Origin: an uncultured Gammaproteobacteria bacterium
GTDB lineage: Bacteria; Pseudomonadota; Gammaproteobacteria; Steroidobacterales; Rariloculaceae
Length of the DNA stretch: 64,000 nt
Assembly (NCBI GenBank): GCA_964384125.1
Contig: CAYLKA010000001.1
Location: 18,616-82,615 of the forward strand
Direction of reading: 5' to 3'
Shown: positions 9,896-55,080 of the stretch, one piece after another
How positions within the stretch are numbered: position 1 is the stretch's first letter
Layout: each line of letters begins with the position of its first letter
Program-made: the position numbers and the translations under genes
The notes under the pieces: generated by a model
What the model saw: the letters and a program-made list of their open reading frames with translations, nothing else
Databases searched by the model: none
Told to the model about the DNA's origin: nothing

Positions 9896-9904
9896 GATCG
9901 ATTC

Positions 9905-20960: not shown

Positions 20961-20996
20961 CAATTGATACTCCAGTCGCTATATCGTGTCAGTTGG

Positions 20997-36826: not shown

Positions 36827-38062
36827 TCAGGTCTCGATCTCGACTAGGGCGACTCGATTTACCGCACTGCAAGCCAATACAAGGTTGCCGTCCGGGGTTG
36901 CCTCCATGTGGCGCACGACGCCTCCACCGGAGGGGATCACCCACGACTGGAAGCGTTCGGTTTGCGTATCGAAGCGCACTAGCGTATTCGGTCGCGAATA
37001 CGTCTCGACGTACCAGATCACGTCACCGATAGCCGCAATGCCGTACGGTAGCGACCCAGGTCCGCCGGGTGAGGCCCACTCCTGCACGTCACCGGTTTCA
37101 GGATCGAACCGGCCTAGATAGCCGCGTGGATAGTCCGTGTACCAAACCGCATCGTCTGGAGTCAGCGCTATGCGTCGAGGTCGTGACTCTGGATTCGGTA
37201 ACTCGTACTCCGTGATCTTGGAGGTGTCTGGGTCGATACTGCCGACCCGGCTTCCGCGAAAGTCGACATACCAGGGCACCCCTTGGGAATTCACCTTGAT
37301 GCCGTAAGGATACGTACCGGAGGTCGGCGTTGCCGAGATTGTCATCTCCTCAGTGTCGGGCACTATTCTGCCCACGTGACCCGACTGCATGGTGAACCAC
37401 ACTGCGCCCTGCTGATCGATAGTGGGGGTGTGAGGACCACGGCCTTCCGACACATGGTATTCGGTCACATCTCCCGTGCTGGGGTCTAGCTTGCCAACGT
37501 AGCCCTGAGAGACGGCCGTGAACCAAATGTTGCCGCTGCCGTCTTCCTGTAGACCATGTGGGCCGGAACTTGCGGTTTCGAGCGGGAACTCCTGCATCGC
37601 GCCGGTCACGGGGTCGACTCGGCCGAGCCTGTTGGCGAATTGGCCGGTCCACCAAATTGAACCGTCGGCGGCAGGGAAAGGATCATGGGGTCGTGAGCCT
37701 AGCGTTGGGGCGATCCACTCGCTGATACTGACATTCACTGGGCCTGAAATCAGCGTTGGGTCGGTGCCTGGTTTTTTGGGAAAGTGCTCCGCCAGGTACT
37801 CCACGACCGAGTCGTTGGTGTCGCCGGGCAGCGTAATCATCGTGCTGATCAGCGCCTCCCAATCTTCGTGCGTGTACCCTCTCGAGTTCGGAATAAAGTC
37901 GAGCCGGTGGCAGGCGGCGCACGTCCCTTCGACGATGGTCTTTGCCTCGCCGTCGGGTAGCTGGACGGCGGGGCGGTCCCGCTGAGCCAGCAAGGTGCTG
38001 GGCAGGGTTAACGTCCAGGCCAGCACAACCGCCGTGTTGGTGATCATTCGTTGTCGCATCAT
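36827..38062 (-). CDS. Exported fusion of a mono-heme cytochrome c domain and a Vgb-like (streptogramin-lyase-type) 7-bladed beta-propeller; paralog A
   Basis: Signal peptide ...LPSTLLAQ and heme site CAACH. Seven repeats follow of the Vgb-type blade (for example GPHGLQEDGSGNIWFTAVSQGYVGKLDPSTGDVTEY). Confidence 0.8.
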   Translation of the reverse strand: MMRQRMITNTAVVLAWTLTLPSTLLAQRDRPAVQLPDGEAKTIVEGTCAACHRLDFIPNSRGYTHEDWEALISTMITLPGDTNDSVVEYLAEHFPKKPGTDPTLISGPVNVSISEWIAPTLGSRPHDPFPAADGSIWWTGQFANRLGRVDPVTGAMQEFPLETASSGPHGLQEDGSGNIWFTAVSQGYVGKLDPSTGDVTEYHVSEGRGPHTPTIDQQGAVWFTMQSGHVGRIVPDTEEMTISATPTSGTYPYGIKVNSQGVPWYVDFRGSRVGSIDPDTSKITEYELPNPESRPRRIALTPDDAVWYTDYPRGYLGRFDPETGDVQEWASPGGPGSLPYGIAAIGDVIWYVETYSRPNTLVRFDTQTERFQSWVIPSGGGVVRHMEATPDGNLVLACSAVNRVALVEIET

Positions 38063-40448: not shown

Positions 40449-41060
40449 TCAAGGGTTGGTCTTTCGTGCAACGAGTTGGGCGAGTGCTGCGGGGCGTCCG
40501 TCGGGATCGTCGATAATACCTTCTCGGTATGAGACGATCTCGAATTCTGCCGCCGCCTTCAGAAGCGCCCCGGGCGCGACGCGAAACTTTGAGTTTTGCG
40601 GCCCGACCACGTCAGCGTCAGTTACTAGATGCTCCTCTACGATCAGATATCCACCGTCTTTCAGGGCGCCGTTGAGGGCGTCCAAAAGCGACAGATTGGT
40701 GTAGCGGATCAAGATGCCTAGGTCGTATTGCTCTTTCTTGAAAAAACACTTGAATCGATTCTCGGGGCTTCCGAGATCTGCTTCAAAGCAAGTAATGCTC
40801 AGATTCTCGGAGCGTGCCGTTTTACTAAGGTGATCGAGCGCGATATTTGAGATATCGACAGCATCAACTTGCCATCGCTCCCTCGCGAGGTAAACACTGT
40901 TTCTTCCGCGGCCGCACGCAACGTCCAGCGCCCTTCGATCGTCCCCATCCCACCCGAGTTTTGGGAGCCATTCGGTCAGTAGCGCGCTGGGATGAGTGCG
41001 ACTGACATACGTGCCGCTGCGATAGCGCTCATTCCACTTATCCCTATCCGCCTGGCTCAT
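40449..41060 (-). CDS. Class I SAM-dependent methyltransferase (TehB-like)
   Basis: N-terminal WNERY and SAM motif I ALDVACGRGRNSVYLA, followed by VDAVDIS. Confidence 0.8.
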   Translation of the reverse strand: MSQADRDKWNERYRSGTYVSRTHPSALLTEWLPKLGWDGDDRRALDVACGRGRNSVYLARERWQVDAVDISNIALDHLSKTARSENLSITCFEADLGSPENRFKCFFKKEQYDLGILIRYTNLSLLDALNGALKDGGYLIVEEHLVTDADVVGPQNSKFRVAPGALLKAAAEFEIVSYREGIIDDPDGRPAALAQLVARKTNP

Positions 41061-41123
41061 TGGGCATCCTTCCGATCAGTGAGCGTTGAACCTCCGTCAT
41101 GGCTGCAAGAGAGGGGACGCCCA

Positions 41124-41294
41124 CTAAGTCGGCCAAACGTTGTGAAAGGTCAGCGAGAGATTGAGGGTGAGCAGGGCTGTGATCACGGAGAACCACAACC
41201 TCGCCCGCATGGAGACGTCAATCGTGTCTAAAGCATTACGAACCAGGCCTGAACCTTTTTCCTCAGGCGACGGGCCTTTCCCGAGTGGTTTCAT
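41124..41294 (-). CDS. Candidate 56-aa single-TM protein (below the ORF-track cutoff)
   Basis: Hand translation: MKPLGKGPSPEEKGSGLVRNALDTIDVSMRARLWFSVITALLTLNLSLTFHNVWPT. The ATG lies 6 nt after the stop of the upstream phosphatidyltransferase gene. No homology is recognised. Confidence 0.3.
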   Translation of the reverse strand: MKPLGKGPSPEEKGSGLVRNALDTIDVSMRARLWFSVITALLTLNLSLTFHNVWPT

Positions 41295-41299
41295 CGGTA

Positions 41300-42052
41300 T
41301 CATGTCCTCGAGTGTTTCACGAGATCACTAGGATCTTGTGTGAGATGGGCAACATCGATAGCGAACGAAAGGCTCAGAACGGCCAGTCCCAGCAAGGCAA
41401 TCGCCCCGCTGAGGGGTTGTCCTACCACTGGTGAAATACACACGATCAAAGCGACGGCCTGAATCACGTAAGCCGTCTGTCGCCTACGTTTGGGGGGCAG
41501 GGGACGGCTGAGCCAAAGAAAAAAATAGCTGGACGCCACGAAACAATAGCGCATGAGTGCGGCGAGGATGATCCACGACCCAGCCTTCTGATACTGCCAC
41601 GCAAGAGCGACCAGAGCGACCAGCAACACCGCGTCCGTCTCCATATCGAAGCGAGCTCCAAAATCACTGGCAACCCCGAAACGCCGGGCTAGCCAGCCAT
41701 CGACACCATCGAGAACCAGAACGAAAGAGGCGACTATGACCACGAGCCAGGGCACGAGGGGTTCCCCGATCAACCCGAAGAGCAAAGCAACTAGGGCGGC
41801 GCGTGCAAGCGTCACCTGATTGGCGGGTCCGAAGGAGTGAGAAGGAAAATGCCTTGTTGCTAGAATTAACGTGAGCGCACTGCCAATGAGAAACAGCCCA
41901 AGAACCTTCCATGGAAAAATCCCACTGAGCTGGAGCGTTTTTAAAAGGGCGATTGAGAATGTGACCAGTGCGACGATCAAAATAGTATTGATGCGCAGTA
42001 TGTCGTTCACGAGATTTTTTCTGCGTTCAGCTGTTAGATTGTTTTTCGACAT
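41300..42052 (-). CDS. CDP-alcohol phosphatidyltransferase family membrane protein
   Basis: Signature D-G-x2-A-R-x8-G-x3-D-x3-D, read as DGVDGWLARRFGVASDFGARFDMETDAV. Six or more TM helices. Confidence 0.9.
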   Translation of the reverse strand: MSKNNLTAERRKNLVNDILRINTILIVALVTFSIALLKTLQLSGIFPWKVLGLFLIGSALTLILATRHFPSHSFGPANQVTLARAALVALLFGLIGEPLVPWLVVIVASFVLVLDGVDGWLARRFGVASDFGARFDMETDAVLLVALVALAWQYQKAGSWIILAALMRYCFVASSYFFLWLSRPLPPKRRRQTAYVIQAVALIVCISPVVGQPLSGAIALLGLAVLSLSFAIDVAHLTQDPSDLVKHSRT

Positions 42053-42128
42053 ATTTAAACGCTTGCATGTTTTCTAATGCCTTGCAAGTATTGTGAAGCT
42101 CTCATCCGCAGAGAAAATCGGACTGCTT

Positions 42129-43127
42129 ATGACTGGTGACAATAGCGCGCGTGCTTTTTGGGTGACAGGTATCGGAGAGGGGGAGATCCGTGCCGAGCAG
42201 TTACCTGAGCCTGCAGATGGAGAGGTCTTGATCCGCACACTCTATAGCGGAATCAGCCGTGGAACTGAGACTCTCGTATTCACGGGTGCTGTTCCGGTGA
42301 GCGAATACGAGCGAATGCGTGCGCCTTTTCAAGAGGGTAATTTTCCCGCGCCCATAAAGTATGGGTACATCAATGTCGGCTTGGTTGAGAAAGGACCAGA
42401 TGGGTTGCTGGGAAAATCGGTATTTTGCATGTACCCACATCAAACTCGGTATGTTGTCCCGGTCGAGGCCGTATACCCTCTCCCGGAGGGTGTGCCGTGC
42501 GGGCGGGCGGTACTTGCGGCCAATCTCGAGTCCGTTGTGAACGGGCTTTGGGATGCTACGCCGAGGGTGGGTGATCGAATCGCCGTGGTGGGTGCCGGAA
42601 CACTCGGGTGTCTTTTCGCGTGGTTGACGACTCAGATCCCGGGCTGCTCAGTCGAATTGGTTGACATCAATCCCGACAAAGCACTCGTGGCTGACGCCTT
42701 GGGTGTTACCTTTAAGCATGTCGATCGCGCGACGTCTGGTGCTGACCTGGTGGTTCATGCTAGCGGGACAGGCGAGGGTCTTTCGAGCGCGCTTGGATTG
42801 GCGGGGTTTGAGGCGAAAGTGCTTGAGTTGAGCTGGTTCGGAGACCGCCACGTTGCACTGCCCCTTGGCGAGAACTTCCATGCGCAACGGCTAACGCTAC
42901 AGTCATCCCAGGTTTCATCCATCCCCAGCGCTCAACGAGGGCGTTGGTCTCCTCGGCGAAGGTTGGAGTTGGTATTTCGACTGCTGGAAGACCCGCGCCT
43001 TGATGTCTTGATCACAGATGATAGCTCATTCGAGGAGTTGCCAGCTGTGCTCGAGACGCTCAGCGTAGGGTCGGGGAATACGCTGTGTCACCGCATTAAC
43101 TATACTGGTGAGGCTGTTGAAGGCTGA
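42129..43127 (+). CDS. Zinc-type medium-chain dehydrogenase/reductase (MDR)
   Basis: GroES-like N-domain ([16 protein letters not shown]) and Rossmann motif VVGAGTLG. The start is ATG 42129 or the upstream in-frame GTG 42093. Confidence 0.8.
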
Positions 43128-43135
43128 GAGGATAC

Positions 43136-43546
43136 ATGCATAGCGTTTGTGTGAGAGATCATTTCATGATCGCCCATAGTCTTAAAGGTGAGGTTTTCGG
43201 CCCCGCGCAGCGGCTGCATGGTGCGACCTATGTGGTCGATGCCGAATTTCACCGTGCGGAGCTCGATCCGGACGGTGTCGTGGTAGATATTGGAAGAGCA
43301 AGCGAAGTCTTGAAGGAGATGCTGGCAGAGCTTAACTACCGAAATCTGGATGAAGACGACACTCTTTCCGGAAACAATACGACAACCGAGTTCCTCGCGT
43401 ACGTTATTTTCCAACGCATGGCTGCCAGGGTGCGCGACGGCGCGCTGGGCGCCTCGGCGCTTTCGTTGAGCTCCCTGCGGGTGACCCTGCATGAATCGAA
43501 CGTAGCTTGGGCTGCGTATGAAGGGAGTCTGGATGGGGACACCTAG
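43136..43546 (+). CDS. 6-pyruvoyl-tetrahydropterin synthase / QueD-like protein with a degenerate active site
   Basis: PTPS-fold N-terminus [11 protein letters not shown]...RLHGATYVV. Compared with the QueD pattern AAH...C-x3-HGH...HH, the Cys, the second His of HGH and the HH pair are absent. Confidence 0.7.
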
Positions 43547-43548
43547 GT

Positions 43549-44604
43549 GTGATCGACGAGCCTGTGCTCGACTTTCTGCTACCGGGTGATCCACAGACAC
43601 TGACTGGCGGGTACATCTACGACCGTCGTATCGCTGAAGGTTTGGTTAACCTTGGATGGCGGGTAGCGGTGCATTCACTCGATGCGAGTTTCCCGTTTCC
43701 AACGCCATTAGCGCTAACCGAAGCCCGCACACTGCTGGAGAGCATCCCGACTGGGAGGATTGTTGTGATCGATGGATTGGCGCTAGGCAGCATGCCAGAA
43801 CCGCTGGCCGACCACGCCGATCGCCTTAGACTGATGGCGTTGATACACCATCCGCTCGCCTGTGAGACGGGGCTAAGTTCGGTGGAACAGCAAAAGCTCA
43901 AGGATTCCGAGCAACGTTCTTTAAGCGCAGTGCGTGGGGTTTTTGTCAACAGCCATTGGACGAAGCAAAAGGTCGCCGGCTACGGCGTCGATCTCGAACG
44001 AATTCACGTCGTGCCGCCCGGGACAGACCCGGCACCACTAGCCGGTGGGTCGGGAAGCGCCTCGCTGCAGCTCCTTTGTGTTGCCACCTTGACGCCAAGA
44101 AAAGGCCACGCGGATCTTTTCGATGCGCTCGCTCAGCTCCGAGATCGATCCTGGTACCTGCGCTGTGTGGGCAGCCTTACACGCAACGTCGATACCGTGA
44201 GCGCACTGCGCAAGCAGATTACACAGTTGGATTTGACGGACCGCGTCGAGTTGCTTGGGGAGGTGACAGCCGACGCTCTGGCTCACTGCTACGAAACAGC
44301 AGATCTGTTCGTGCTTGCTTCTTACCTTGAGGGTTACGGCATGGTGCATTCAGAGGCTCTGTCCAGAGGGTTGCCGCTGGTTTGCACATCTGCAGGGGCT
44401 GTTCCGGAAACAGTTAAGGCTAATGCGGCGCTGCTTGTGCCGGAGGGGAATGTCGCCGGATTGGTTTGCGCGCTGACGAAGGTCATGGACGATCGCAGTT
44501 TATTGTCCGACCTGGCGAGTGGAGCGCGTATCGCTCGCGATAACCTTCCAAGCTGGGATCAGGCTGCAGCGCAGTTCGCCGCTGGGCTTAGGGTGTTACT
44601 GTGA
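43549..44604 (+). CDS. GT-B glycosyltransferase (GT4 / Glycos_transf_1-like)
   Basis: GTG start 2 nt after the upstream stop. C-terminal domain motifs ADLFVLASYLEGYGMVHSEALSRGLPLV. Confidence 0.85.
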   Translation: MIDEPVLDFLLPGDPQTLTGGYIYDRRIAEGLVNLGWRVAVHSLDASFPFPTPLALTEARTLLESIPTGRIVVIDGLALGSMPEPLADHADRLRLMALIHHPLACETGLSSVEQQKLKDSEQRSLSAVRGVFVNSHWTKQKVAGYGVDLERIHVVPPGTDPAPLAGGSGSASLQLLCVATLTPRKGHADLFDALAQLRDRSWYLRCVGSLTRNVDTVSALRKQITQLDLTDRVELLGEVTADALAHCYETADLFVLASYLEGYGMVHSEALSRGLPLVCTSAGAVPETVKANAALLVPEGNVAGLVCALTKVMDDRSLLSDLASGARIARDNLPSWDQAAAQFAAGLRVLL

Positions 44605-45467
44605 GCCGGTTCGATTGCGAATGGCTGAGCTTGAGGGAACCACTCGACACGGCATCGCGCGCTCACGTTATTGCGGAAACCTTGATAGACGTAATGCCCG
44701 ATCGGCCGATTCAGATAATCGACCTCGGGACTGGTACCGGTGCCAACTTACGTTACTTGAGTCAGATTCTTGGGGGTCCCCAGGAGTGGTGCCTAATCGA
44801 CCGGGACCAGACTCTCCTTGACTCCATCTCTGCCACCTTAAGCGAGTGGGTCCTCGGCTTCGAAGGCGAAGTAAAGCGGTCGGGTACTGAGCTCATCGTC
44901 ACCCGGCATGATTTCGAGTGCCACGTGCGTACCGAACAGAGAAATCTTGCGACCGACTTGGCAGCGGTCGATTTTTCTGCAGATGCTCTGGTCAGCGGGT
45001 CTGCGTTACTTGACCTGGTTTCAGAGCAATGGTTGCAGGAGCTTGCGCAGCGCTGCCACGCCGTCCGCGCTCCAGTGCTTTTCGCTCTTAACTATGACGG
45101 GCACATGGAATTTGACCCGCGCGAAGCGGACGATGAACGCGTACGCAAGTTGGTCAATCTCCATCAAATGACAGACAAGGGATTTGGAAAGGCGCTCGGG
45201 CCCAAGGCGGGACAGAACGCCGTAAGGACTTTCGAACAACTCGGATACCGGGTTAAGCACGCTCGCAGTGATTGGCGGATATCTCCGAGCGATCAGGAAG
45301 TGCAAGGGATATTGCTGGATATGTGGTTTTCTGCCGCGCTGGAAGTCGCTCCCGATGATGTGTCGGCGCTTCGTAACTGGATACAACGACGCCGTGACCA
45401 TGTGGCATGCGGGCGCTCCGGTCTAAGCGTCGGCCACATCGATCTTCTTGGATGGTTGCCGAGATGA
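44601..45467 (+). CDS. Class I SAM-dependent methyltransferase
   Basis: GTG start overlapping the upstream stop (GTGA). SAM motif I IIDLGTGTGANLRYL. Confidence 0.75.
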   Translation: MSRFDCEWLSLREPLDTASRAHVIAETLIDVMPDRPIQIIDLGTGTGANLRYLSQILGGPQEWCLIDRDQTLLDSISATLSEWVLGFEGEVKRSGTELIVTRHDFECHVRTEQRNLATDLAAVDFSADALVSGSALLDLVSEQWLQELAQRCHAVRAPVLFALNYDGHMEFDPREADDERVRKLVNLHQMTDKGFGKALGPKAGQNAVRTFEQLGYRVKHARSDWRISPSDQEVQGILLDMWFSAALEVAPDDVSALRNWIQRRRDHVACGRSGLSVGHIDLLGWLPR

Positions 45468-45478
45468 GCGAGCTTGTT

Positions 45479-46456
45479 TCAGATGATTCGGTTTAGGCCG
45501 CCGACAGAACCTTTCGCTGCCTCGGGCTCAGGCTCCCCTCGGAGATCGCAGTCGAAAAGCACGTCTCCACCCATTCTGAAGATGCGATGAGTTGGATGTA
45601 AGCACTCGTCGATGCGCTGTTTCGCGGCTAATCGAATGCCGGGTCGTCCGATGCCCGTTATCAAGGGCGCGACTGCAACTTGCAGGCGGTCGAGCAAACC
45701 GGCCTCGAGGAAGCTAGATACAGTGGTGCCTCCGCCTTCAACGAATATCAGAACCAGGCCGCGAGCGTGCAGTGCTTCGAGTAGATGCCCAAGATCAAGG
45801 CGCCCTGCCTTCATTGGGATACCGAGGACGTCCGCTGCTGCAATTCGCTTGGAAGCGTTCACCGTCTGGGCCTCGTCGCATACGAGCAGCGTTGGTGCTT
45901 GCTGATCAGAGAAGACTCGCAGTTTGGGGGGCAATCTTAGATGAGGATCGAGGATGACCCGGACTGGATTCTCCCCTTCCACTCGTCGGGTTGTTAGCTG
46001 GGGGTCATCGGTGGAGGCGGTTCCCGCTCCAACTATCACTGCATCACAAAGCGCCCGCATACGGTGGAGGTGCAGTATGTTCTCTGGGCCAGTCACATAG
46101 TTGGAATCACCCGAGCGAGTTGCGATGTATCCGTCGAGCCCCTGTCCCAGGTGTCCCACCGTGAGGGGAGACTCACGTGAAGCACCACAGATCGGCAGAT
46201 AAAGATCCAGCAGAGAGTGGCTCGAAGGCGGCGCACTCGGCGAGTGGGCCCAACCGCTGGGCGTTTGCCACACCAGGAAAGCTCGATTATCGTCGCTGGA
46301 AACCGGATAGAGGTAGCCGGAAGAATCGACTCCGTAGGCGCTCCCGTCCTCTGGGTTTTGCGCCCGACGCGCCCGACGCCCGGCTGCTAGCAGTGCGCTC
46401 CACACCCGCTCGATGTTCTCGTTGCCGTCGGTCACTTTGGGTTCAGGACTAGACAT
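45479..46456 (-). CDS. RibD C-terminal-domain (pyrimidine reductase / DHFR-like) protein without a deaminase domain
   Basis: Reductase-domain pattern SLDGYIATRSGDSNYVTG, CDAVIVGAGTASTDDPQLTTR, NPVRVILD and VEGGGTTVSSFL. The ~95-aa N-terminal extension has no HAE/PCxxC deaminase motif. Confidence 0.8.
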   Translation of the reverse strand: MSSPEPKVTDGNENIERVWSALLAAGRRARRAQNPEDGSAYGVDSSGYLYPVSSDDNRAFLVWQTPSGWAHSPSAPPSSHSLLDLYLPICGASRESPLTVGHLGQGLDGYIATRSGDSNYVTGPENILHLHRMRALCDAVIVGAGTASTDDPQLTTRRVEGENPVRVILDPHLRLPPKLRVFSDQQAPTLLVCDEAQTVNASKRIAAADVLGIPMKAGRLDLGHLLEALHARGLVLIFVEGGGTTVSSFLEAGLLDRLQVAVAPLITGIGRPGIRLAAKQRIDECLHPTHRIFRMGGDVLFDCDLRGEPEPEAAKGSVGGLNRII

Positions 46457-46464
46457 CTGGGGAT

Positions 46465-47637
46465 ATGAATATCTCGGACACGGCTACTCGGCAGTCTGCT
46501 ATCCTAGCACCCAAGAAGGATTCGGCGGAGACCATGGCCTCTGAAGAAAAAGAAATAAACGGACACCCTTCGAGTTTGATGACGGAGCGTGCGGTGGAGG
46601 AGATGCGCCGTGGTCGCGCCATTCAACTGCTCGATGGCAAACGATGCTGGCTAATGGCCGCCATGGAAACCATGGAGTCACCGTTGCTGGATCGGCTAAA
46701 GCAAGTAAACGGTGGTGACATAAGATTGCTTGTCACGCCGCAACGGGCTACGGCAGCGGCGCTCGCGGAGGAGTCGACTGACCCCGTTTCTATCTCCTTT
46801 CCTAAAGGTATAAGTCTCGAGGTTCTTCGTTCGTTGGCTGGAGTCGGGTCTCAAGTGCCAATTAAAAAAACGACGCTGGCAGTGGAAGTCCCAACGAATG
46901 CAGCGAGTGTAGGGGCCGGTTTCCGACTCGCGAAGCTTGGCAGGCTTCTGCCCGCACTGATCAGTGTGCGCAGTACTGAAGTTTCGAACTCCGATCTGGT
47001 TAGTATCAGTGTGGAGGATATCGATCGCTATCCTCGTTCCCAAGGAAATGACCTAAGACTCACGAGCCGAGCTCGTGTTCCGCTGGTTGACACAGCGGAT
47101 TGTGAGGTCGTGCTCTTTAGACAGAAGTACGGATTTGGTGAGCATCTGGCGATTGTAATCGGTGAGCCGAACTCAGAGGCTGTCGTGCCCGTTCGGTTGC
47201 ACTCAGCCTGTTTGACCGGAGATCTCCTCGGCAGCTTGCGTTGCGATTGTGGCGATCAGCTCAGGAGAGCGGTTAGCCGCATCGCGTCTTTGGGCGGTGG
47301 TGTGCTCTTGTACCTCGATCAGGAGGGTCGCGGAATCGGGCTTGCTAACAAGTTGCGAGCTTATGCCCTGCAGGATGCTGGTTTGGATACTTTGGACGCA
47401 GACCAGCACTTAGGATTTCTTCCGGATGAGCGTAGCTATGATGTTGCAGCTGCGATGTTGCGCGAGTTGGGGATTAAACGCATTCGACTGCTCACGAATA
47501 ACCCCTCAAAGATCGACGCCCTCACGGAACATGGAATTAAGGTCATCGGAAGGCTGCCGCTGGTAGTGCCCGTAAACTCGCACAATCAACGCTATCTCAA
47601 AGCCAAGCTCGATCGAGCTGGTCACCTGGCTGAGTGA
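46465..47637 (+). CDS. GTP cyclohydrolase II with a degenerate RibB-like N-terminal domain
   Basis: The GCH II core reads VRLHSACLTGDLLGSLRCDCGDQL ... LLYLDQEGRGIGLANKLRAYALQD ... RLLTNNPSK, with all three Zn Cys present. The N-domain resembles DHBP synthase but lacks its acidic DRENEGD-type cluster. An alternative ATG start lies at 46534. Confidence 0.85.
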   Translation: MNISDTATRQSAILAPKKDSAETMASEEKEINGHPSSLMTERAVEEMRRGRAIQLLDGKRCWLMAAMETMESPLLDRLKQVNGGDIRLLVTPQRATAAALAEESTDPVSISFPKGISLEVLRSLAGVGSQVPIKKTTLAVEVPTNAASVGAGFRLAKLGRLLPALISVRSTEVSNSDLVSISVEDIDRYPRSQGNDLRLTSRARVPLVDTADCEVVLFRQKYGFGEHLAIVIGEPNSEAVVPVRLHSACLTGDLLGSLRCDCGDQLRRAVSRIASLGGGVLLYLDQEGRGIGLANKLRAYALQDAGLDTLDADQHLGFLPDERSYDVAAAMLRELGIKRIRLLTNNPSKIDALTEHGIKVIGRLPLVVPVNSHNQRYLKAKLDRAGHLAE

Positions 47638-47656
47638 CGCGACGACCGCGAAACCT

Positions 47657-48463
47657 CTATCCCTTATCTGGGCCCTTATCGATCACGCTTAGTGGCGTGT
47701 CGGTGACTTCTACGAGCAGAGTAGTGAGGCAGCTCGCGAGGTGACTCAGGTAGATCGCGCCGAGTTTGGCATCTGCCCTTGTGGCGTCTCCACATACACC
47801 GGCTGGATTCAGATCCTGGCTCATCCAGCCAAAGCCGACAGGGTTTTCTGCACCCAATAAAGTGTTTTGATCCGCCATTGCACCGGATATGCCCGTGAAA
47901 TTATCTAGAGCATCTCTGCGAACGAGGTCAGGTCGTATATGTAGTATTAAGGATGTCTCAAGAAGTCCACCGTGCAGATCCTGCGAGAGATCTTCTTCAT
48001 CGAAGAGTCCCGGCGGTGTGCCAAAGGCAAAATAATTGGCGCGAACTACGAACATTTTCCGCTCTACGCGTAGTTGCAGTGCTGCAAGGTCCACCAATGC
48101 CGTTTGACCCCCGTGGCTGTTGAACACCACGAGTTTTCTAATGCCGCTGTGCGAGACGCTAGTGCCGATTGCCTTCCAGGCCGAAAGAAGCGTGTCGGCA
48201 TCGATACTGAGGGTGCCCGGAAAAGCGGTGTGCTCAAGGCTGCTGCCGACGGTCATGGCTGGCAGCACCAGTACGGCGCAATGTTCCGGCAACAGTTTCA
48301 AGCATTCCGAGACGATGGCTTCGTTGATGAGTGCATCCGTAGCCAATGGCAGGTGCGGACCGTGTTGCTCGATGGCGGCTACGGGAAGCAATGCGATCGT
48401 GCCCTCTGGACTCAATCGTAAGAAATCGCTCGTCGTGAAATCTTGCCAATATCCGCTTGCCAT
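47657..48463 (-). CDS. Creatininase-family amidohydrolase
   Basis: Family motif LPVAAIEQHGPHLPLATD and downstream FNSHGGQ. Confidence 0.85.
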   Translation of the reverse strand: MASGYWQDFTTSDFLRLSPEGTIALLPVAAIEQHGPHLPLATDALINEAIVSECLKLLPEHCAVLVLPAMTVGSSLEHTAFPGTLSIDADTLLSAWKAIGTSVSHSGIRKLVVFNSHGGQTALVDLAALQLRVERKMFVVRANYFAFGTPPGLFDEEDLSQDLHGGLLETSLILHIRPDLVRRDALDNFTGISGAMADQNTLLGAENPVGFGWMSQDLNPAGVCGDATRADAKLGAIYLSHLASCLTTLLVEVTDTPLSVIDKGPDKG

Positions 48464-48475
48464 GTCTTTTTTTAT

Positions 48476-49102
48476 TCAGTGCCTGCGCGCTTCGAACTCG
48501 ATGATTATCTCGACCGTGTCACCTACCCAGCCGTTCTCGACACCGTAGTTCATATCGTAAGAGCTACGTTGAAAACTTCCGCGCGCCGAAATACCCATTA
48601 CGTACTGCTCATCGCCGAAGGGGTACGTTCCGCTCTTATTCCACGAAACGGTGAGATTTAAGGGTCTGATAAGGCCGAGTAACTCTAGTTCGCCCTCTAC
48701 CTCAAAGGTCATCTCATCGATCGGTCTGGCAGTAGCTCCCGAAAATGTCATCGAAGGGAATTGGCGGACGTTTAGGAAGTCGGCACTTCGCAAATGCGTG
48801 TCCCGTCGCCTGTGATTCGTAAAAATGCTGGCCGTATCCACAACTATTAAGACGTCGGATAGTTGGCCGGTATCTTCATCGAATTGGTATGAGCCGCTTG
48901 CCTCCTGGAAAGAGCCCAGAACCTTCGCGTAGCCAAGATGTTCGACCAGAAAGCCAAGGGCGAGATGCTCCGGGTCTATTTCATACTGTTGGGGTTCTGC
49001 CTGTGCCGCGAACCCGATGAGGACCAAACTGCATAGAGCCATCACCCCCAATCGTGAGGGCTGAAAGCAGATGGCTGTAGTGCGACCAAGGGTTCGAGAC
49101 AT
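48476..49102 (-). CDS. YceI family periplasmic (polyisoprenoid-binding) protein
   Basis: YEIDPEHLALGFLVEHLGYAKVLGSF, RDTHLRSADFLNVRQFPSMTF and LGLIRPLNL match the YceI pattern. The signal peptide fits best from the internal ATG at 49042. Confidence 0.8.
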   Translation of the reverse strand: MSRTLGRTTAICFQPSRLGVMALCSLVLIGFAAQAEPQQYEIDPEHLALGFLVEHLGYAKVLGSFQEASGSYQFDEDTGQLSDVLIVVDTASIFTNHRRRDTHLRSADFLNVRQFPSMTFSGATARPIDEMTFEVEGELELLGLIRPLNLTVSWNKSGTYPFGDEQYVMGISARGSFQRSSYDMNYGVENGWVGDTVEIIIEFEARRH

Positions 49103-49439: not shown

Positions 49440-50681
49440 ATGAGAATTCGAACACTAATAGGGTTTTCGCCAGCGTTGCTCTTGATAGTAGCGTTTCCAT
49501 CAGCCGTCCTGGCTCAGCAGGAATCACCCGCGGTGCAGCTGCCCGAGGGCGAGGCGAAGGCGATAATCGAAGGTACCTGCATTGCGTGCCACGAACTCGA
49601 CTACATCCCGAACTCAAGGGGTAACTCGCACGACGGCTGGGAAGCTTTGATTAGCTCGATGATCGCGCTGCCCGGCGAAGTAAAGGGTTCGATAGTGGGA
49701 TATCTCGCGGAGAATTTTCCCAAGAAACCGGGCACCGACCCGGTGCTAATTCCCGGTCCGGTTGACGTCACCATCACGGAGTGGATAGCGCCAACGCTCG
49801 GTTCACGACCCCACGATCCGCTCGCGTCAGCCGACGGCTCCCTCTGGTGGGCCGGGCAGTACGCGAACAGGCTGGGCCGGGTCGATCCGGCGACTGGCGA
49901 GACACAGGAATTCCCCCTAGACATCGCGAATTCCGGGCCCCACGGCCTGATCGAGGACGGAGAAGGCAACATTTGGTTTACCGGCAACTACCAAAACTAC
50001 ATGGGCAAGCTCGATCCGAAAACGGGGGATGTGACTGAGTACCCTGTGCCGGAGGGTCAGGGCGTCCGCGCTCCGCACACGCCGATCGTCGATCAAGACG
50101 GAATCGTTTGGTACACCACGCCATCGGGGCATGTGGGCAGGCTCGACCCTAAGACAGAGGAAACAACGATTTCGACCGCACCGACCCCCGGAGCGTTTCC
50201 GTATGGCATTGAGATAAATTCGAAAGGGGAGCCCTGGTATGTTGATTTTCGGGGTAACCGGGTCGGAAGCGTCGATCCCTCGACAGGTAAGATCACCGAG
50301 TACGAGCTCCCCCACCCCGACTCTCGTCCTCGGCGCATCACGCTGACGCCAGATGATGCCGTTTGGTATACGGACTACCCTCGCGGCTACCTGGGTCGCT
50401 TCGATCCTGAGACTGGAGAGGTGCAAGAATGGCTATCTCCGAGTGGCACCACCTCTCAGCCGTATGGCATTGCCGCGGTGGGTGACATTATCTGGTATGT
50501 GGAAACCTACTCGCGGCCCAATTCGCTCGTGCGGTTCGATACGAAGACCGAAGAGTTTCAGACCTGGGCAATCCCCTCTGGCGGGGGTGTTGTTCGCCAT
50601 ATGGTAGCAACCGAGGACGGCAATCTCGTACTGGCTTGCAGCGCGGTTAACCGCATCGCCCTGGTAGAGGTAGAGACTTGA
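49440..50681 (+). CDS. Exported fusion of a mono-heme cytochrome c domain and a Vgb-like beta-propeller; paralog B
   Basis: Heme site CIACH. Collinear with 36827..38062 over its full length, with roughly three quarters of residues identical by eye and an almost identical C-terminal block (GGGVVRHM.AT.DGNLVLACSAVNR.ALVE.ET). Confidence 0.8.
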   Translation: MRIRTLIGFSPALLLIVAFPSAVLAQQESPAVQLPEGEAKAIIEGTCIACHELDYIPNSRGNSHDGWEALISSMIALPGEVKGSIVGYLAENFPKKPGTDPVLIPGPVDVTITEWIAPTLGSRPHDPLASADGSLWWAGQYANRLGRVDPATGETQEFPLDIANSGPHGLIEDGEGNIWFTGNYQNYMGKLDPKTGDVTEYPVPEGQGVRAPHTPIVDQDGIVWYTTPSGHVGRLDPKTEETTISTAPTPGAFPYGIEINSKGEPWYVDFRGNRVGSVDPSTGKITEYELPHPDSRPRRITLTPDDAVWYTDYPRGYLGRFDPETGEVQEWLSPSGTTSQPYGIAAVGDIIWYVETYSRPNSLVRFDTKTEEFQTWAIPSGGGVVRHMVATEDGNLVLACSAVNRIALVEVET

Positions 50682-51525: not shown

Positions 51526-51981
51526 ATGAGTGAACACAGTATTCCTGCCGAGTTGCCGAGTTGGATCGCTGAGCATGTCGAGCTTTATTTGGAGGATCCC
51601 GAAAAGGCCCATATGTGGGATTCCACGCCCCGCGGGGGTCCGGGCGTGTTGCCCACGTTGCTCTTGACCACGACCGGCCGTAAATCGGGCCTGGCTAGAA
51701 TATTGCCCCTGCTCTACGTGAAAGTGGATGGTGGTTTCGTTGTTATTGCGTCGAAAGGCGGTGCGCCTCAGCACCCAGCTTGGTACCTGAATCTTGTGGA
51801 AACTCCCGCGTGCGAAATTCGTGTTGGGAAGGAACACTACCGGGTAAACGCACGCGTGTCAGAGGGCGAGGAGCGAGCAGAACTCTGGAAGGAGATGGCC
51901 CAGATGTATCCGCCCTATGACGACTATCAGGTGGCAACCAACCGGGAGATTCCGGTGGTTGTGCTGGAGCCTGTCGACTAA
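51526..51981 (+). CDS. Ddn-family deazaflavin-dependent nitroreductase/quinone reductase-like protein (DUF385 type)
   Basis: LLLTTTGRKSGLARILPLLYVKVDGGFVVIASKGGAPQHPAWYLNLVETP ... REIPVVVLEPV is the canonical pattern of this split beta-barrel family. Confidence 0.8.
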   Translation: MSEHSIPAELPSWIAEHVELYLEDPEKAHMWDSTPRGGPGVLPTLLLTTTGRKSGLARILPLLYVKVDGGFVVIASKGGAPQHPAWYLNLVETPACEIRVGKEHYRVNARVSEGEERAELWKEMAQMYPPYDDYQVATNREIPVVVLEPVD

Positions 51982-52866: not shown

Positions 52867-53310
52867 CTATTGGCCTCGTTGCTCTCGATATTCGCTCAGG
52901 CGCGCTTCGACAATTCGCAGGCGTTCGCCAGCCTGACCGTTTCCACCGCCGACCTCCGAGCCATCGGGCATGGTAATGAACGTCCACTCCACTAGGTTCT
53001 GCCCAAATCGGGACGGGCGCCCAAGGATTCGAATACGGTCTCCAGGCTTGAACTGATCATCTGTCCAGCCTGAGCGCCGAAGGTTGATAATGCTGTCGCC
53101 CTCCGCCATCCAGGACTCCGTTTCCCCTTGCTCGTTGGTGATGTCAAGGTAGATCCGAGAGTGCGGATTGACCGGGCGAAACTCCGTCACTACACCTTCG
53201 ATTTCTACACGCTCATCGACGATGTAATGGGCTGCCGGGTTGTGATGGGCCATCGCAGGCAGCGACACCAGCGCTGCGGTATAAATGAGAGCGAAATTTC
53301 TACCTGTCAT
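52867..53310 (-). CDS. Exported HH/NPH-module protein, short single-domain form; copy 3
   Basis: ORF trimmed to MTGRNFALIYTAALVSLPAMA|HHNPAAHY (ATG 53310). Contains PVNPHSRIYLD, LRRSGWT and ITMPDGSEV. Confidence 0.85.
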   Translation of the reverse strand: MTGRNFALIYTAALVSLPAMAHHNPAAHYIVDERVEIEGVVTEFRPVNPHSRIYLDITNEQGETESWMAEGDSIINLRRSGWTDDQFKPGDRIRILGRPSRFGQNLVEWTFITMPDGSEVGGGNGQAGERLRIVEARLSEYREQRGQ

Positions 53311-53324
53311 TACTACAGTCCTCG

Positions 53325-54927: not shown

Positions 54928-55080
54928 TTCTTGGCTCGCAATAAATCGTGTGTCTCGGGCGATTCCGACGGCAAGATGACACTCTGCCTGCTCGAACTGG
55001 TTAGAATTAGGGTCTTGGCTCTGAATCTCCCGTGCTGGGGGAAACACAACAACAAAGAGCGCAGGAAGCGAGGTCATACC

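What the first reader, a model, noticed from the sequence alone, without database searches (positions are those of the whole stretch)
40449..49102. Uncharacterised cluster combining GTP-derived pyrimidine chemistry with glycosyl, methyl and phosphatidyl transfer
Eleven ORFs lie in tightly packed, alternately oriented units:
- Minus strand: SAM methyltransferase, a 56-aa TM ORF and a CDP-alcohol phosphatidyltransferase.
- Plus strand: Zn-MDR dehydrogenase, PTPS/QueD-like protein, GT4 glycosyltransferase and a second SAM methyltransferase. The junctions are 8 nt, 2 nt and a GTGA overlap.
- Minus strand: a RibD-type reductase.
- Plus strand: GTP cyclohydrolase II.
- Minus strand: a creatininase-family amidohydrolase and YceI.

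The window contains no lumazine synthase, riboflavin synthase, functional DHBP synthase or pyrimidine deaminase, so this does not look like a housekeeping rib operon. My inference is that GTP is opened by GCH II and the ribosyl group is reduced. The pyrimidine or pterin-like intermediate is then tailored by the dehydrogenase, PTPS-like protein, two methylations and a glycosylation. It is finally joined to a lipid or other alcohol through the CDP-alcohol phosphatidyltransferase. The lipid-binding YceI protein could act as a periplasmic carrier. I do not know of a described product for such a gene set.
Basis: inference. Interest (0 to 1): 0.75.

Follow-up and report, generated by a model that had tools for sequence, protein, structure and literature searches.

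The report
Orphan GTP-to-envelope-lipid biosynthetic gene cassette
This is a real gene cassette found in at least three bacterial phyla and related to a partly studied Streptomyces cluster; it probably turns GTP into a sugar- and methyl-decorated head group on a membrane lipid, but nobody has yet identified the product.

Summary
The eleven ORFs and their family assignments are confirmed. Nine of them (41,124-49,102) form a unit. In 54 independent loci chosen only by homology to the 288-aa methyltransferase, the dehydrogenase, PTPS-like protein, GT4 and RibD_C reductase are present in 51-54. GCH II is present in 37, and CDP-alcohol transferase and creatininase in 24 each. The window's flanking genes are present in 1. 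GCH II-RibD_C and GT4-methyltransferase also occur as fusions.

The cassette is not new as a gene neighbourhood. Its PTPS-like protein is about 65% identical to SCO6650 (PDB 3D7J, 'PTPS-IV', motif FGPAQ), and Streptomyces plasmids carry the same gene set. The window version differs in having a canonical Tyr-type GCH II.

It is not a rib operon: there is no deaminase domain, lumazine synthase, riboflavin synthase or FMN riboswitch, and copies sit on plasmids.

New here:
- The reductase is closest to the solved diamino-substrate reductases 6P8C and 2AZN.
- The dehydrogenase is BchC-like and lacks the catalytic Zn cysteine.
- The '56-aa TM ORF' is the stump of a deleted five-TM sulfatase-fold transferase.
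- In other lineages the cassette sits beside that transferase, MprF-like flippases and periplasmic-glucan genes.

The TehB-like methyltransferase is not part of the unit. The product remains unknown.

The parts
41124..41303 (-). 59-codon stump of a deleted five-TM, sulfatase-fold membrane transferase gene. It still overlaps the CDP-alcohol transferase stop by 4 nt, as the intact gene does in L004.
   Evidence: BLASTP E 3e-10 to residues 1-56 of the 590-aa gene L004:4929-6701, sharing the motif LSFHNVWPT. Nothing else of that gene is detectable in 39.5-42.2 kb. The stump is 73% conserved in the close relative L092. The intact homologues have about 5 N-terminal TM helices plus a roughly 400-aa soluble domain.
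41300..42052 (-). CDP-alcohol phosphatidyltransferase, a polytopic membrane enzyme. Proposed to join the pathway's alcohol to CDP-diacylglycerol.
   Evidence: PF01066, E 2e-16. The catalytic motif DGVDGWLARRFGVASDFGARFDMETD is intact. Present in 24 of 54 loci, diverging from the dehydrogenase gene, including Streptomyces and Agrobacterium plasmids.
42093..43127 (+). BchC-like MDR-fold NAD-dependent dehydrogenase. The probable true start is ATG 42129, giving 332 aa. It is the first gene of the 4-gene translationally coupled operon.
   Evidence: No Pfam hit above cut-off; weak TIGR01202 BchC hit at 2.9e-9. AlphaFold pLDDT 82; the nearest folds are RspB, threonine, xylitol, butanediol, idonate and sorbitol dehydrogenases and TarJ, with TM about 0.75. 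Invariant SRGxE replaces the catalytic Cys motif; GAGxxG and Asp179 are present. Present in 53 of 54 loci at 45-85% identity.
43136..43546 (+). PTPS-IV (SCO6650-type T-fold protein). It is not a functional PTPS/QueD.
   Evidence: E 2.7e-47 and about 65% identity to PDB 3D7J, SCO6650. The FGPAQ signature of PTPS-IV is present (PMC5445326). The catalytic Cys and Asp-His and the third Zn-His are replaced, while two His and the substrate-anchoring Glu120 are invariant. Present in 54 of 54 loci.
43549..44604 (+). GT4 retaining-type glycosyltransferase, MshA/PimB'/BshA-like.
   Evidence: PF00534, E 2e-28. The best solved relatives are MshA 7QSG (8e-16), PimB' and BshA. Present in 54 of 54 loci. Natural fusions with the next gene exist (P0420, 646 aa).
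44601..45467 (+). Cluster-specific class I SAM methyltransferase (288 aa). Its start overlaps the GT4 stop (GTGA).
   Evidence: AlphaFold pLDDT 95, with generic small-molecule methyltransferase neighbours. 1366 representatives at E<=1e-30. SAM motif DLGAGTGAN and many invariant residues.
45479..46456 (-). Stand-alone RibD_C pyrimidine reductase without a deaminase domain. It carries a lineage-conserved extension of about 95 aa at the N-terminus.
   Evidence: PF01872, E 1.2e-40. The best PDB matches are 6P8C, named 2,5-diamino-6-ribosylamino-pyrimidinone 5'-phosphate reductase (3e-32), and 2AZN (2e-29; from memory this is Methanocaldococcus jannaschii MJ0671, the archaeal enzyme). Both rank ahead of bacterial RibD (2e-20). 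Present in 51 of 54 loci, and fused to GCH II in L001-L003, L006 and L007.
46465..47637 (+). GTP cyclohydrolase II (residues about 200-390) with a conserved N-terminal domain that looks like a degenerate DHBP-synthase domain. An alternative start lies at 46531.
   Evidence: PF00925, E 6e-58; PRK08815-like, 354 bits, below cut-off. The Zn cysteines and the Tyr105-equivalent (KLRAYALQD) are retained relative to E. coli RibA 2BZ0. The N-terminal domain has no Pfam hit. hhalign against E. coli RibB gives probability 31% and E 5e-4, with the acidic catalytic loop deleted.
47657..48463 (-). Creatininase-family amidohydrolase. The most likely role is a formamidase for the 5-formylamino intermediate of GTP ring opening (BrbF/ArfB-like).
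   Evidence: PF02633, E 2e-64. A bacterial creatininase-family enzyme, BrbF, deformylates that intermediate (PMC9478397). Present in 24 of 54 loci, strongly similar in 9, and also in both Streptomyces loci.
48476..49102 (-). YceI-family periplasmic protein with a signal peptide. This is an accessory member of the cassette in this lineage.
   Evidence: PF04264, E 2.5e-35. One N-terminal hydrophobic segment. Present in 7 of 54 loci, always at the cassette edge. Other loci have a cytochrome b561-type gene instead.

Best explanation
Coordinates 41,124-49,102 hold one copy of a mobile, widely distributed cassette built around a PTPS-IV protein. It is the proteobacterial counterpart of the Streptomyces coelicolor sco6650-6655 region, and it makes a specialised GTP-derived envelope component rather than riboflavin.

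Proposed steps:
1. A canonical Tyr-type GTP cyclohydrolase II opens GTP to 2,5-diamino-6-ribosylamino-pyrimidinone 5'-phosphate. This rests on sequence signatures only.
2. The creatininase-family enzyme removes formyl from any released formylamino intermediate. This is inferred by analogy with BrbF and ArfB.
3. The deaminase-less RibD_C reductase reduces the ribosyl group to ribityl before any deamination. This is inferred from the enzyme's closest solved relatives, which act on the diamino substrate, and from gene fusions.
4. Four translationally coupled enzymes then tailor the ribityl compound. A BchC-like NAD-dependent polyol dehydrogenase oxidises a hydroxyl. PTPS-IV binds the 2-amino-4-oxopyrimidine end and may assist ring closure or rearrangement to a pterin- or lumazine-like ring. 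An MshA-like GT4 adds a sugar, and the 288-aa methyltransferase methylates. This step is inference.
5. The CDP-alcohol phosphatidyltransferase couples the product to CDP-diacylglycerol, giving a phospholipid with a new head group. This step is inference.
6. In most other lineages a five-TM sulfatase-fold transferase (the LtaS/OpgB/EptA architecture), sometimes with an MprF-like flippase, passes the phospho-head group to periplasmic glucans or another envelope acceptor. This is inferred from neighbourhoods.

In this window that transferase gene is reduced to a 59-codon stump. Here the pathway probably ends at the lipid, or uses a transferase encoded elsewhere.
For: Unit and boundaries:
- Core genes are present in 51-54 of 54 loci, against 1 of 54 for the flanking genes.
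- L093 (56% identity) has the same CDP-OH-to-YceI cassette with unrelated flanks.

Functional coupling:
- GCH II-RibD_C fusions.
- GT4-methyltransferase fusions.
- 8-nt, 2-nt and 4-nt-overlap junctions.

Not riboflavin:
- No deaminase, RibH, RibE, RibB families or FMN riboswitch.
- Plasmid-borne copies.

Homology with the Streptomyces cluster:
- SCO6650 match at 2.7e-47.
- Same gene set and order in L089 and L090.

Early steps:
- GCH II keeps the zinc cysteines and the switch Tyr.
- The reductase is closest to 6P8C and 2AZN.
- BrbF gives a precedent for the creatininase role.

Tailoring:
- The dehydrogenase fold matches polyol dehydrogenases, including TarJ.
- GT4 is closest to enzymes that glycosylate inositol phosphate, malate or phosphatidylinositol mannoside.
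- PTPS-IV keeps the anchoring Glu but not the catalytic triad.

Envelope link:
- The CDP-OH motif is intact.
- A sulfatase-fold five-TM protein lies next to CDP-OH in 27 or more loci.
- An MprF-like flippase domain occurs in 7 loci, including Streptomyces and Agrobacterium.
- Periplasmic-glucan genes are adjacent in several lineages: MdoH, which passes the NCBIfam cut-off, in 32 loci (31 alphaproteobacterial and one gammaproteobacterial, L067); MdoG in Acidobacteriota; an NdvB-like GH17-GT2 in L004; and OpgC plus a sulfatase in Bradyrhizobium.
Against: - No product has ever been observed, and every step after the reductase is inference.
- Only 24 of 54 loci carry the CDP-alcohol transferase within 10 kb, and most alphaproteobacterial loci lack it, so lipid linkage may not be universal.
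- The sulfatase-fold proteins have no close characterised relative (no PDB or NCBIfam hit). Their transferase role rests on architecture alone.
- The many MdoH associations are largely within related Hyphomicrobiales and are not independent events.
- The window has a Tyr-type GCH II, which should not need a separate formamidase. All 46 non-actinobacterial GCH II genes have Tyr whether or not a creatininase is present, so the creatininase may do something else.
- In this window the transferase gene has decayed and no glucan genes lie within 64 kb.
- A published remark, citing unpublished work, links PTPS-IV to coenzyme F420 (PMC5041015).
Confidence: 0.45

Rival explanations
1. The cassette supplies a precursor for a flavin or deazaflavin cofactor. 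It would be an archaeal-style early pathway (cyclohydrolase, formamidase, reductase) in which PTPS-IV is the missing 2-amino deaminase or another F420/FO step, yielding 5-amino-6-ribitylaminouracil for FO/F420 or extra riboflavin.
For: - PMC5041015 states that PTPS-IV is involved in F420 synthesis, citing unpublished work.
- The cyclohydrolase / creatininase-family / deaminase-less reductase trio mirrors archaeal ArfA/ArfB/ArfC, and the reductase's best solved relatives are 6P8C and 2AZN.
- An F420H2-dependent quinone reductase family ORF lies 2.4 kb away in the window, and a PPOX-class F420-dependent oxidoreductase lies next to the Streptomyces fungicidicus copy.
Against: - No cofC, cofD, cofE, cofG, cofH or late rib genes occur in the window, and none of the recurrent neighbour gene families in the 93 loci was one of them.
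- The F420-related neighbours are not conserved (1 of 54).
- This reading does not explain the invariant coupling with GT4, the methyltransferase and the dehydrogenase (53-54 of 54), or the CDP-alcohol transferase, sulfatase-fold and glucan genes.
- Carriers include taxa not known to make F420 (background knowledge, not tested here).
Confidence: 0.12
2. The cassette makes a soluble pterin glycoside, analogous to cyanobacterial biopterin glucoside, cyanopterin or Chlorobium tepidopterin. The ribityl intermediate would be oxidised at C2' and cyclise to a dihydroneopterin-type pterin, which is then glycosylated and methylated. The membrane genes would serve export or an unrelated function.
For: - A PTPS-family protein followed by a glycosyltransferase and a methyltransferase recalls pteridine-glycoside loci (PMC5683033 and PMC4133829, listed).
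- SCO6650 was reported to keep residues suited to a pterin-like ligand (from memory of Spoonamore et al. 2008), and the anchoring Glu is invariant.
- The dehydrogenase resembles polyol and ribitol-phosphate dehydrogenases such as TarJ, which makes C2' oxidation followed by ring closure chemically plausible.
Against: - No GTP cyclohydrolase I is present, and PTPS-IV lacks the residues for PTPS chemistry.
- I did not establish that the known pteridine glycosyltransferases are homologous to this GT4.
- A soluble product does not explain the CDP-alcohol transferase (24 of 54) or its tight pairing with sulfatase-fold transferases and flippase domains.
Confidence: 0.15
3. The cassette makes a diffusible secondary metabolite (a toxin or signal) of the toxoflavin type, built from the GCH II product and exported.
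For: - GCH II, a RibD-type reductase and a methyltransferase are also the core of toxoflavin clusters (background knowledge).
- Copies lie on plasmids and on Streptomyces linear plasmids or chromosome arms.
- ABC exporters lie near the alphaproteobacterial copies.
- SCO6652 is induced about 16-fold in late mycelium (PMC3610822). That SCO6652 belongs to the cluster is inferred only from gene numbering.
Against: - No ToxC or ToxD-type genes are present.
- The very high conservation of the dehydrogenase and PTPS-IV across phyla (about 60-70% identity) and the envelope-gene neighbourhoods look more like a structural or physiological function than a variable natural product.
Confidence: 0.1
4. The genes are a chance juxtaposition of unrelated housekeeping genes, including an ordinary ribA/ribD pair.
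For: The orientations alternate, and each family is individually common.
Against: - The unit is conserved across three phyla with unrelated flanks.
- Gene fusions exist.
- Plasmid-borne copies exist.
- The deaminase domain is missing.
Confidence: 0.02

Closest known systems
Streptomyces coelicolor sco6650-sco6655 region (PTPS-IV cluster)
   Same: The PTPS-like protein is about 65% identical to SCO6650. Streptomyces plasmid loci L089 and L090 carry CDP-alcohol transferase, then dehydrogenase-PTPS-GT4-methyltransferase, then RibD_C, creatininase and GCH II, in nearly the window's order. The PTPS-IV / GCH II / RibD_C neighbourhood was noted in PMC5445326.
   Different: The Streptomyces GCH II has Met at the switch position. 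From memory of Spoonamore et al. 2006, SCO6655 therefore releases the formylamino product. The window and all 46 other non-actinobacterial copies have Tyr. The window enzyme also has an extra N-terminal domain, and the window adds YceI. The Streptomyces copies carry a flippase-like gene. No product is known for either version.
Archaeal early riboflavin/F420 pathway (ArfA, ArfB, ArfC) and bacterial BrbF
   Same: The logic is the same: cyclohydrolase, then a creatininase-family formamidase, then a deaminase-less reductase. The reductase's best solved relatives are 6P8C and 2AZN. BrbF shows that a bacterial creatininase-family enzyme performs the deformylation.
   Different: The cyclohydrolase here is a GCH II homologue, not GCH III. 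No later riboflavin or F420 genes follow, and the products feed a dehydrogenase/GT4/methyltransferase module instead.
Phosphatidylinositol / PIM and mycothiol-type head-group chemistry (CDP-alcohol transferase plus GT4 such as PimA/PimB'/MshA)
   Same: A CDP-alcohol phosphatidyltransferase is paired with a GT4 whose nearest solved relatives glycosylate a polyol phosphate or a phosphatidyl-polyol.
   Different: The polyol here would be a GTP-derived ribitylaminopyrimidine or pterin, not inositol. Neither enzyme reaches the cut-off of any named NCBIfam model.
Phospholipid-donor decoration of periplasmic glucans and envelope (OpgB/CgmB phosphoglycerol transfer, EptA, LtaS; MprF flipping)
   Same: Related loci pair the CDP-alcohol transferase with a five-TM sulfatase-fold protein and sometimes an MprF-like flippase domain. 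They also lie beside MdoH, MdoG, OpgC or an NdvB-like synthase.
   Different: The sulfatase-fold proteins are very distant from the characterised ones (no PDB or NCBIfam hit). The head group would be new. In the window this gene is only a stump and no glucan genes are nearby.
Pteridine glycoside pathways (GCH I, PTPS, sepiapterin reductase, pteridine glycosyltransferase)
   Same: A PTPS-family gene is directly followed by a glycosyltransferase and a methyltransferase.
   Different: There is no GCH I. The PTPS catalytic residues are absent. Entry is through GCH II and a RibD_C reductase.

Membership tests
PTPS-IV (SCO6650-type) gene cluster | The PTPS homologue carries the FGPAQ signature and lacks the catalytic Cys/Asp-His triad and the third zinc histidine. 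| tested here: met
   The window protein has [13 protein letters not shown]. Cys is replaced by Ala/Phe, HGH by HGA, and D-H by N-Y. E 2.7e-47 to 3D7J.
PTPS-IV (SCO6650-type) gene cluster | GCH II (PF00925) and RibD_C (PF01872) genes lie in the immediate neighbourhood. | tested here: met
   Both lie within 3 kb in the window. RibD_C is present in 51 of 54 related loci and GCH II in 37 of 54.
PTPS-IV (SCO6650-type) gene cluster | Same accessory set as the Streptomyces copies: CDP-alcohol transferase, MDR dehydrogenase, GT4, methyltransferase and creatininase. | tested here: met
   tblastn of the window proteins on L089 and L090 finds all of them in the same relative order.
PTPS-IV (SCO6650-type) gene cluster | The GCH II is of the SCO6655 type, with Met instead of Tyr at the product switch (formylamino product). 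| tested here: not met
   The window has KLRAYALQD, i.e. Tyr. Only the two Streptomyces loci have Met. The window is therefore a Tyr-type variant.
Bacterial riboflavin (rib) operon | Bifunctional RibD with an N-terminal cytidine-deaminase-like domain. | tested here: not met
   Only the RibD_C domain is detected. The N-terminal 100 aa have no Pfam hit at E<=5.
Bacterial riboflavin (rib) operon | Lumazine synthase, riboflavin synthase and an active DHBP synthase are present, usually with an FMN riboswitch. | tested here: not met
   None was found among the window's ORFs of at least 150 aa. Rfam finds only a tRNA. The N-terminal domain of the GCH II aligns weakly to RibB with the acidic loop deleted.
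Archaeal-type ArfA/ArfB/ArfC early pathway | The reductase acts on the diamino (non-deaminated) substrate. | tested here: inconclusive
   The closest solved relatives are 6P8C, named a 2,5-diamino-6-ribosylamino-pyrimidinone 5'-phosphate reductase (3e-32), and 2AZN (2e-29). The TIGR01508 score of 114.8 is below its cut-off of 186. Substrate preference was not assayable.
Archaeal-type ArfA/ArfB/ArfC early pathway | A GTP cyclohydrolase III, and a formamide hydrolase that deformylates its product. | tested here: not met
   The cyclohydrolase is a GCH II homologue. A creatininase-family protein is present, but its activity is not testable here.
Coenzyme F420 biosynthesis | CofG/CofH (FbiC), CofC, CofD and CofE genes are present. 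| tested here: not met
   They are absent from the window and from the recurrent neighbours of 93 loci.
Pteridine glycoside pathway | GTP cyclohydrolase I plus a catalytically competent PTPS. | tested here: not met
   No GCH I is found in the window or in the recurrent neighbours, and the PTPS catalytic residues are missing.
Phospholipid-donor envelope decoration (OpgB/EptA/LtaS type) | A membrane protein with about 5 N-terminal TM helices and an extracytoplasmic sulfatase-fold domain is encoded with the lipid-synthesis gene. | tested here: not met
   In the window only a 59-codon stump remains. The feature is met in 27 or more related loci, so it applies to the cassette family, not to this copy.
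CDP-alcohol phosphatidyltransferase family | Motif D-x2-D-G-x2-A-R-x8-G-x3-D-x3-D in a polytopic membrane protein. | tested here: met
   The motif DGVDGWLARRFGVASDFGARFDMETD is present and there are several hydrophobic segments. Donor and acceptor are not testable here.

The most novel reading that the evidence does not exclude
The cassette makes a previously undescribed class of phospholipid whose head group is a GTP-derived, glycosylated and methylated ribitylaminopyrimidine or pterin. In most carriers this head group is flipped and transferred onto periplasmic glucans. That would be a new and widespread kind of envelope decoration in soil and marine bacteria of at least three phyla, and possibly a membrane- or periplasm-anchored redox-active or UV-absorbing chromophore.
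Probability: 0.3. Interest if true: 0.85.

Novelty: new member of a known kind. Interest (0 to 1): 0.6.

Why it matters
The cassette is common. The cluster-specific methyltransferase has 1366 representatives at 50% clustering, and its dehydrogenase and PTPS-IV partners each gave more than 8000 hits. It spans Actinomycetota, Pseudomonadota and Acidobacteriota, and it moves on plasmids.

It has stayed an orphan since two of its Streptomyces proteins were studied in 2006-2008. Identifying the product would do several things:
- It would assign functions to several large 'hypothetical' or mis-annotated families. PGAP currently names PTPS-IV '6-carboxytetrahydropterin synthase' with a queuosine GO term.
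- It would explain why bacteria keep a second GCH II/reductase branch.
- It would test whether a nucleotide-derived chromophore is built into membrane lipid or periplasmic glucans.

The neighbourhood data gathered here convert a vague orphan into a specific experiment: lipidomics and glucan analysis of mutants in organisms that are already genetically tractable.

Tried and rejected
1. FAPy-type GCH II. I expected the Met switch that would explain the creatininase. The window and all 46 non-actinobacterial homologues have Tyr; only Streptomyces has Met.
2. FMN riboswitch or any other Rfam element. None was found except a tRNA.
3. Reading the primary papers on SCO6655, SCO6650 and COG0720 (Spoonamore 2006 and 2008; Phillips 2012). 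They are not held, so what I say about them is from memory. It is supported indirectly.
4. Literature searches for the gene combination, for SCO6648-6655, and for creatininase plus GCH II. No product was described.
5. DHBP-synthase origin of the GCH II N-terminal domain.
6. Fold search of the 288-aa methyltransferase. It gave only generic class I neighbours with TM about 0.4-0.6 and no substrate clue.
7. PDB and NCBIfam searches for the sulfatase-fold transferase and for the 459- and 480-aa membrane proteins of the alphaproteobacterial loci. Nothing was found.
8. The first neighbour-clustering script was confounded by antisense ORFs in GC-rich DNA. I replaced it with targeted tblastn.
9. TehB-like methyltransferase as a cluster member. 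Rejected: it occurs in 1 of 54 loci.
10. A link to F420. It was considered because of PMC5041015 and a nearby PF04075 ORF. It is not supported by gene content.

Full report
**Observation**

Most Pfam and NCBIfam assignments hold:
- TehB-like methyltransferase, 40449-41060(-).
- CDP-alcohol phosphatidyltransferase, 41300-42052(-), with its full catalytic motif.
- PTPS family, 43136-43546(+).
- GT4, 43549-44604(+).
- RibD_C without a deaminase domain, 45479-46456(-).
- GTP cyclohydrolase II, 46465-47637(+).
- Creatininase family, 47657-48463(-).
- YceI, 48476-49102(-).

The 8-nt and 2-nt gaps and the GTGA overlap in the plus-strand operon were read from the sequence.

Two proteins have no family above threshold but are real:
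- The 'Zn-MDR' folds as an MDR dehydrogenase (pLDDT 82). Polyol and secondary-alcohol dehydrogenases are its nearest structures.
- The 288-aa protein folds as a class I methyltransferase (pLDDT 95).

No other riboflavin gene family and no FMN riboswitch occur in the 64 kb.

**Is it a unit?**

I used the 288-aa methyltransferase, the most cluster-specific protein, as bait. It has 1248 word-index hits and 1366 representatives at E<=1e-30. This brought in 80 genome loci plus contigs that encode individual homologues.

In the 54 non-duplicate loci of at least 18 kb, tblastn with the window proteins gives these counts:

| Gene | Loci of 54 |
|---|---|
| Dehydrogenase | 53 |
| PTPS-like | 54 |
| GT4 | 54 |
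| RibD_C | 51 |
| GCH II | 37 |
| CDP-alcohol transferase | 24 |
| Creatininase | 24 (9 at >=45% identity) |
| YceI | 7 |
| Each flanking gene of the window (TehB-like methyltransferase, glyoxalase, amidohydrolase, two Vgb-lyase paralogues, CMD, F420H2 quinone reductase) | 1 |

The single locus with the flanking genes is the 92%-identical relative L092.

L093 is 56% identical. It carries the same block from the CDP-alcohol transferase to YceI between unrelated genes. This sets the unit boundaries at about 41.1-49.1 kb.

GCH II and RibD_C are fused into one protein in Acidobacteriota. GT4 and the methyltransferase are fused in some metagenomic proteins.

Carriers include Acidobacteriota, Gamma-, Beta- and Alphaproteobacteria (Bradyrhizobium, Methylosinus, Agrobacterium, Rhizobium, Caenispirillum) and Streptomyces. 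Several copies are on plasmids.

The window itself comes from an uncultured gammaproteobacterium. A cluster-mate protein is named 'MAG ... CM1200mP36 [Gammaproteobacteria bacterium]', and a related PTPS sequence (72% identity) occurs in a Tara ocean dataset, which suggests a marine source.

**What was already known**

The PTPS-like protein is about 65% identical (E 2.7e-47) to PDB 3D7J, 'uncharacterized protein SCO6650' of Streptomyces coelicolor. It carries FGPAQ, the published signature of the PTPS-IV subfamily (PMC5445326).

- The catalytic Cys and the Asp-His pair of PTPS/QueD are replaced.
- One of the three zinc histidines is replaced.
- The Glu that anchors the 2-amino-4-oxopyrimidine ring is invariant.

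This agrees with my recollection of Spoonamore et al. (2008) that SCO6650 lacks zinc and PTPS activity but keeps a pterin-type pocket.

PMC5445326 had already noted that PTPS-IV genes neighbour PF00925 and PF01872. PMC5041015 says, citing unpublished work, that PTPS-IV is involved in F420 synthesis.

From memory of Spoonamore et al. (2006), the neighbouring GCH II homologue SCO6655 has Met in place of the conserved Tyr and releases the 5-formylamino product. PMC13151069 confirms only that the third S. coelicolor RibA homologue has a new, non-flavin function.

Streptomyces plasmid loci L089 and L090 contain the same set in nearly the same order as the window: CDP-alcohol transferase, then dehydrogenase-PTPS-GT4-methyltransferase, then RibD_C, creatininase and GCH II. 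Their GCH II indeed has Met at that position.

The window cassette is therefore a member of this already noticed orphan cluster family. I found no paper that describes a product.

**What is different or new here**

- *GCH II type.* The window GCH II, and all 46 proteobacterial and acidobacterial homologues examined, keep the zinc cysteines and the switch Tyr. They are predicted to make the ordinary diamino product.
- *N-terminal domain.* The enzyme carries a conserved domain of about 200 aa at its N-terminus with no Pfam match. It aligns weakly to DHBP synthase with the acidic catalytic loop deleted (inconclusive).
- *Reductase.* Its best solved relatives are 6P8C, named a 2,5-diamino-6-ribosylamino-pyrimidinone 5'-phosphate reductase (3e-32), and 2AZN (2e-29; from memory the Methanocaldococcus jannaschii MJ0671 enzyme). 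Both rank ahead of bacterial RibD. With the missing deaminase domain, this points to reduction before any deamination.
- *Creatininase.* A bacterial creatininase-family enzyme, BrbF, has been shown to deformylate the formylamino intermediate (PMC9478397). This gives the creatininase gene a plausible role. Its presence beside Tyr-type cyclohydrolases remains unexplained.
- *Dehydrogenase.* It is extraordinarily conserved, at about 63-85% identity among the top 120 of more than 8000 hits. It has the invariant SGISRGTE where zinc-MDR enzymes have their catalytic cysteine, as in BchC. It also has a GAGxxG/Asp NAD site.
- *GT4.* Its nearest solved relatives act on inositol phosphate (MshA), malate (BshA) or phosphatidylinositol mannosides (PimB').

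**The envelope connection**

The small ORF at 41124-41303 is not a free-standing TM peptide. It matches the first 56 residues of a 590-aa gene that follows the CDP-alcohol transferase in L004 (E 3e-10), and it ends where the similarity ends. No further remnant is detectable.

That gene family has about five N-terminal TM helices and a sulfatase-fold domain of about 400 aa, which is the architecture of LtaS, OpgB and EptA. It sits next to the CDP-alcohol transferase in 27 or more loci.

An MprF-like flippase-domain gene accompanies the cassette in seven loci, including Streptomyces and Agrobacterium.

Different lineages place the cassette beside different periplasmic-glucan genes:
- MdoH, which passes NCBIfam cut-offs, in 32 loci: 31 alphaproteobacterial ones, including the Methylosinus plasmid, and one gammaproteobacterial MAG (L067).
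- MdoG in Acidobacteriota.
- An NdvB-like GH17-GT2 synthase in L004.
- OpgC plus a sulfatase-family protein in Bradyrhizobium.

Overall, 46 of 62 large loci have a sulfatase-fold transferase and/or a glucan gene within 10 kb. FkbM-type methyltransferases recur in 42 loci.

These associations are partly inherited within clades, so they are not 46 independent events. They do recur across three phyla and with non-homologous glucan synthases.

**Mechanism**

My best reading is given under 'best explanation'. In outline, GTP goes to a diamino-ribosyl compound, which is reduced to a ribityl compound. That compound is oxidised or cyclised, then glycosylated and methylated. It is then phosphatidylated from CDP-diacylglycerol. 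In most lineages the phospho-head group is then transferred to periplasmic glucan or another envelope acceptor.

The first two or three steps rest on strong homology and on fusions. Everything after that is inference from family resemblance and neighbourhood.

One chemically attractive sub-hypothesis is oxidation of the ribityl C2' hydroxyl, which is the reverse of the TarJ-type reaction. That would give the Amadori-type ketone, which cyclises to a dihydroneopterin-phosphate-like pterin bound by PTPS-IV. I could not test this.

In the window the transferase gene has decayed. This copy would therefore stop at the lipid, unless a transferase is encoded elsewhere.

**Verdict**

The cassette is a new, Tyr-type proteobacterial member of a known but uncharacterised cluster family. 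It is not an unknown gene set, and not all eleven ORFs belong to it.

Its interest lies in three points: it is abundant, it is conserved across phyla, and it still has no product. The link to phospholipid head-group transfer and periplasmic glucans, which I did not find in the literature, makes it directly testable.

Noticed in passing
window 3443-16439 (+): A long co-directional operon of the Bat/MoxR 'aerotolerance' type. It comprises a GATase1-like/VWA protein, a TPR plus Peptidase_MA protein, MoxR AAA_3 (8852-9895), DUF58 (9905-10822), BatA/VWA (10822-12819) and a 1207-aa DUF4175-like protein (12816-16439).
   Followed up: no
window 1180-2268(-), 33982-35007(+), 52867-53352(-), 54931-56082(+); Vgb-lyase paralogues at 36827-38062(-) and 49440-50681(+): Four DUF6152-domain ORFs are scattered through the window. 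Two roughly 410-aa Vgb_lyase-family beta-propeller paralogues bracket the cassette in inverted orientation. The same arrangement occurs in the 92%-identical relative L092 but in no other locus. It may mark an expanded paralogous gene family, or the insertion site of the cassette.
   Followed up: partly
window 51526-51981 (+): An F420H2-dependent quinone reductase family (PF04075) ORF lies 2.4 kb from the cassette in a gammaproteobacterial context, with no F420 biosynthesis genes in the window. It is not conserved next to the cassette elsewhere (1 of 54 loci).
   Followed up: partly
window 46465-47064 (+): The N-terminal 200 or so residues of the GCH II form a domain conserved across gamma- and alphaproteobacterial copies, with no Pfam match. 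It aligns weakly to DHBP synthase with the acidic catalytic loop deleted. The domain is absent from the Streptomyces and acidobacterial versions, and its role is unknown.
   Followed up: partly
window 45479-46456 (-), residues 1-95: The RibD_C reductase has an N-terminal extension of about 95 aa with no family match. It is conserved in gammaproteobacterial relatives (the alignment with L088 starts at residue 19) but is missing from alphaproteobacterial and Streptomyces homologues.
   Followed up: no
L080 3587-4966(-) and 12909-14351(+), and homologues in about 15 alphaproteobacterial loci: Two polytopic membrane proteins (459 and 480 aa, 10-12 predicted TM segments) with no Pfam, NCBIfam or PDB match travel with the alphaproteobacterial version of the cassette. 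A fused ABC exporter, an FkbM methyltransferase and MdoH accompany them.
   Followed up: partly
L086-L091 (annotated plasmid records): NCBI's pipeline names PTPS-IV '6-carboxytetrahydropterin synthase' with a queuosine-biosynthesis GO term. The residues needed for that reaction are absent, so this is a systematic mis-annotation of a family with more than 8000 hits.
   Followed up: yes
window 20508-20963 (-): A YtoQ-type nucleoside 2-deoxyribosyltransferase-like ORF (PF11071, E 9e-65) stands alone between a MarR regulator and a 2OG-Fe(II) oxygenase.
   Followed up: no
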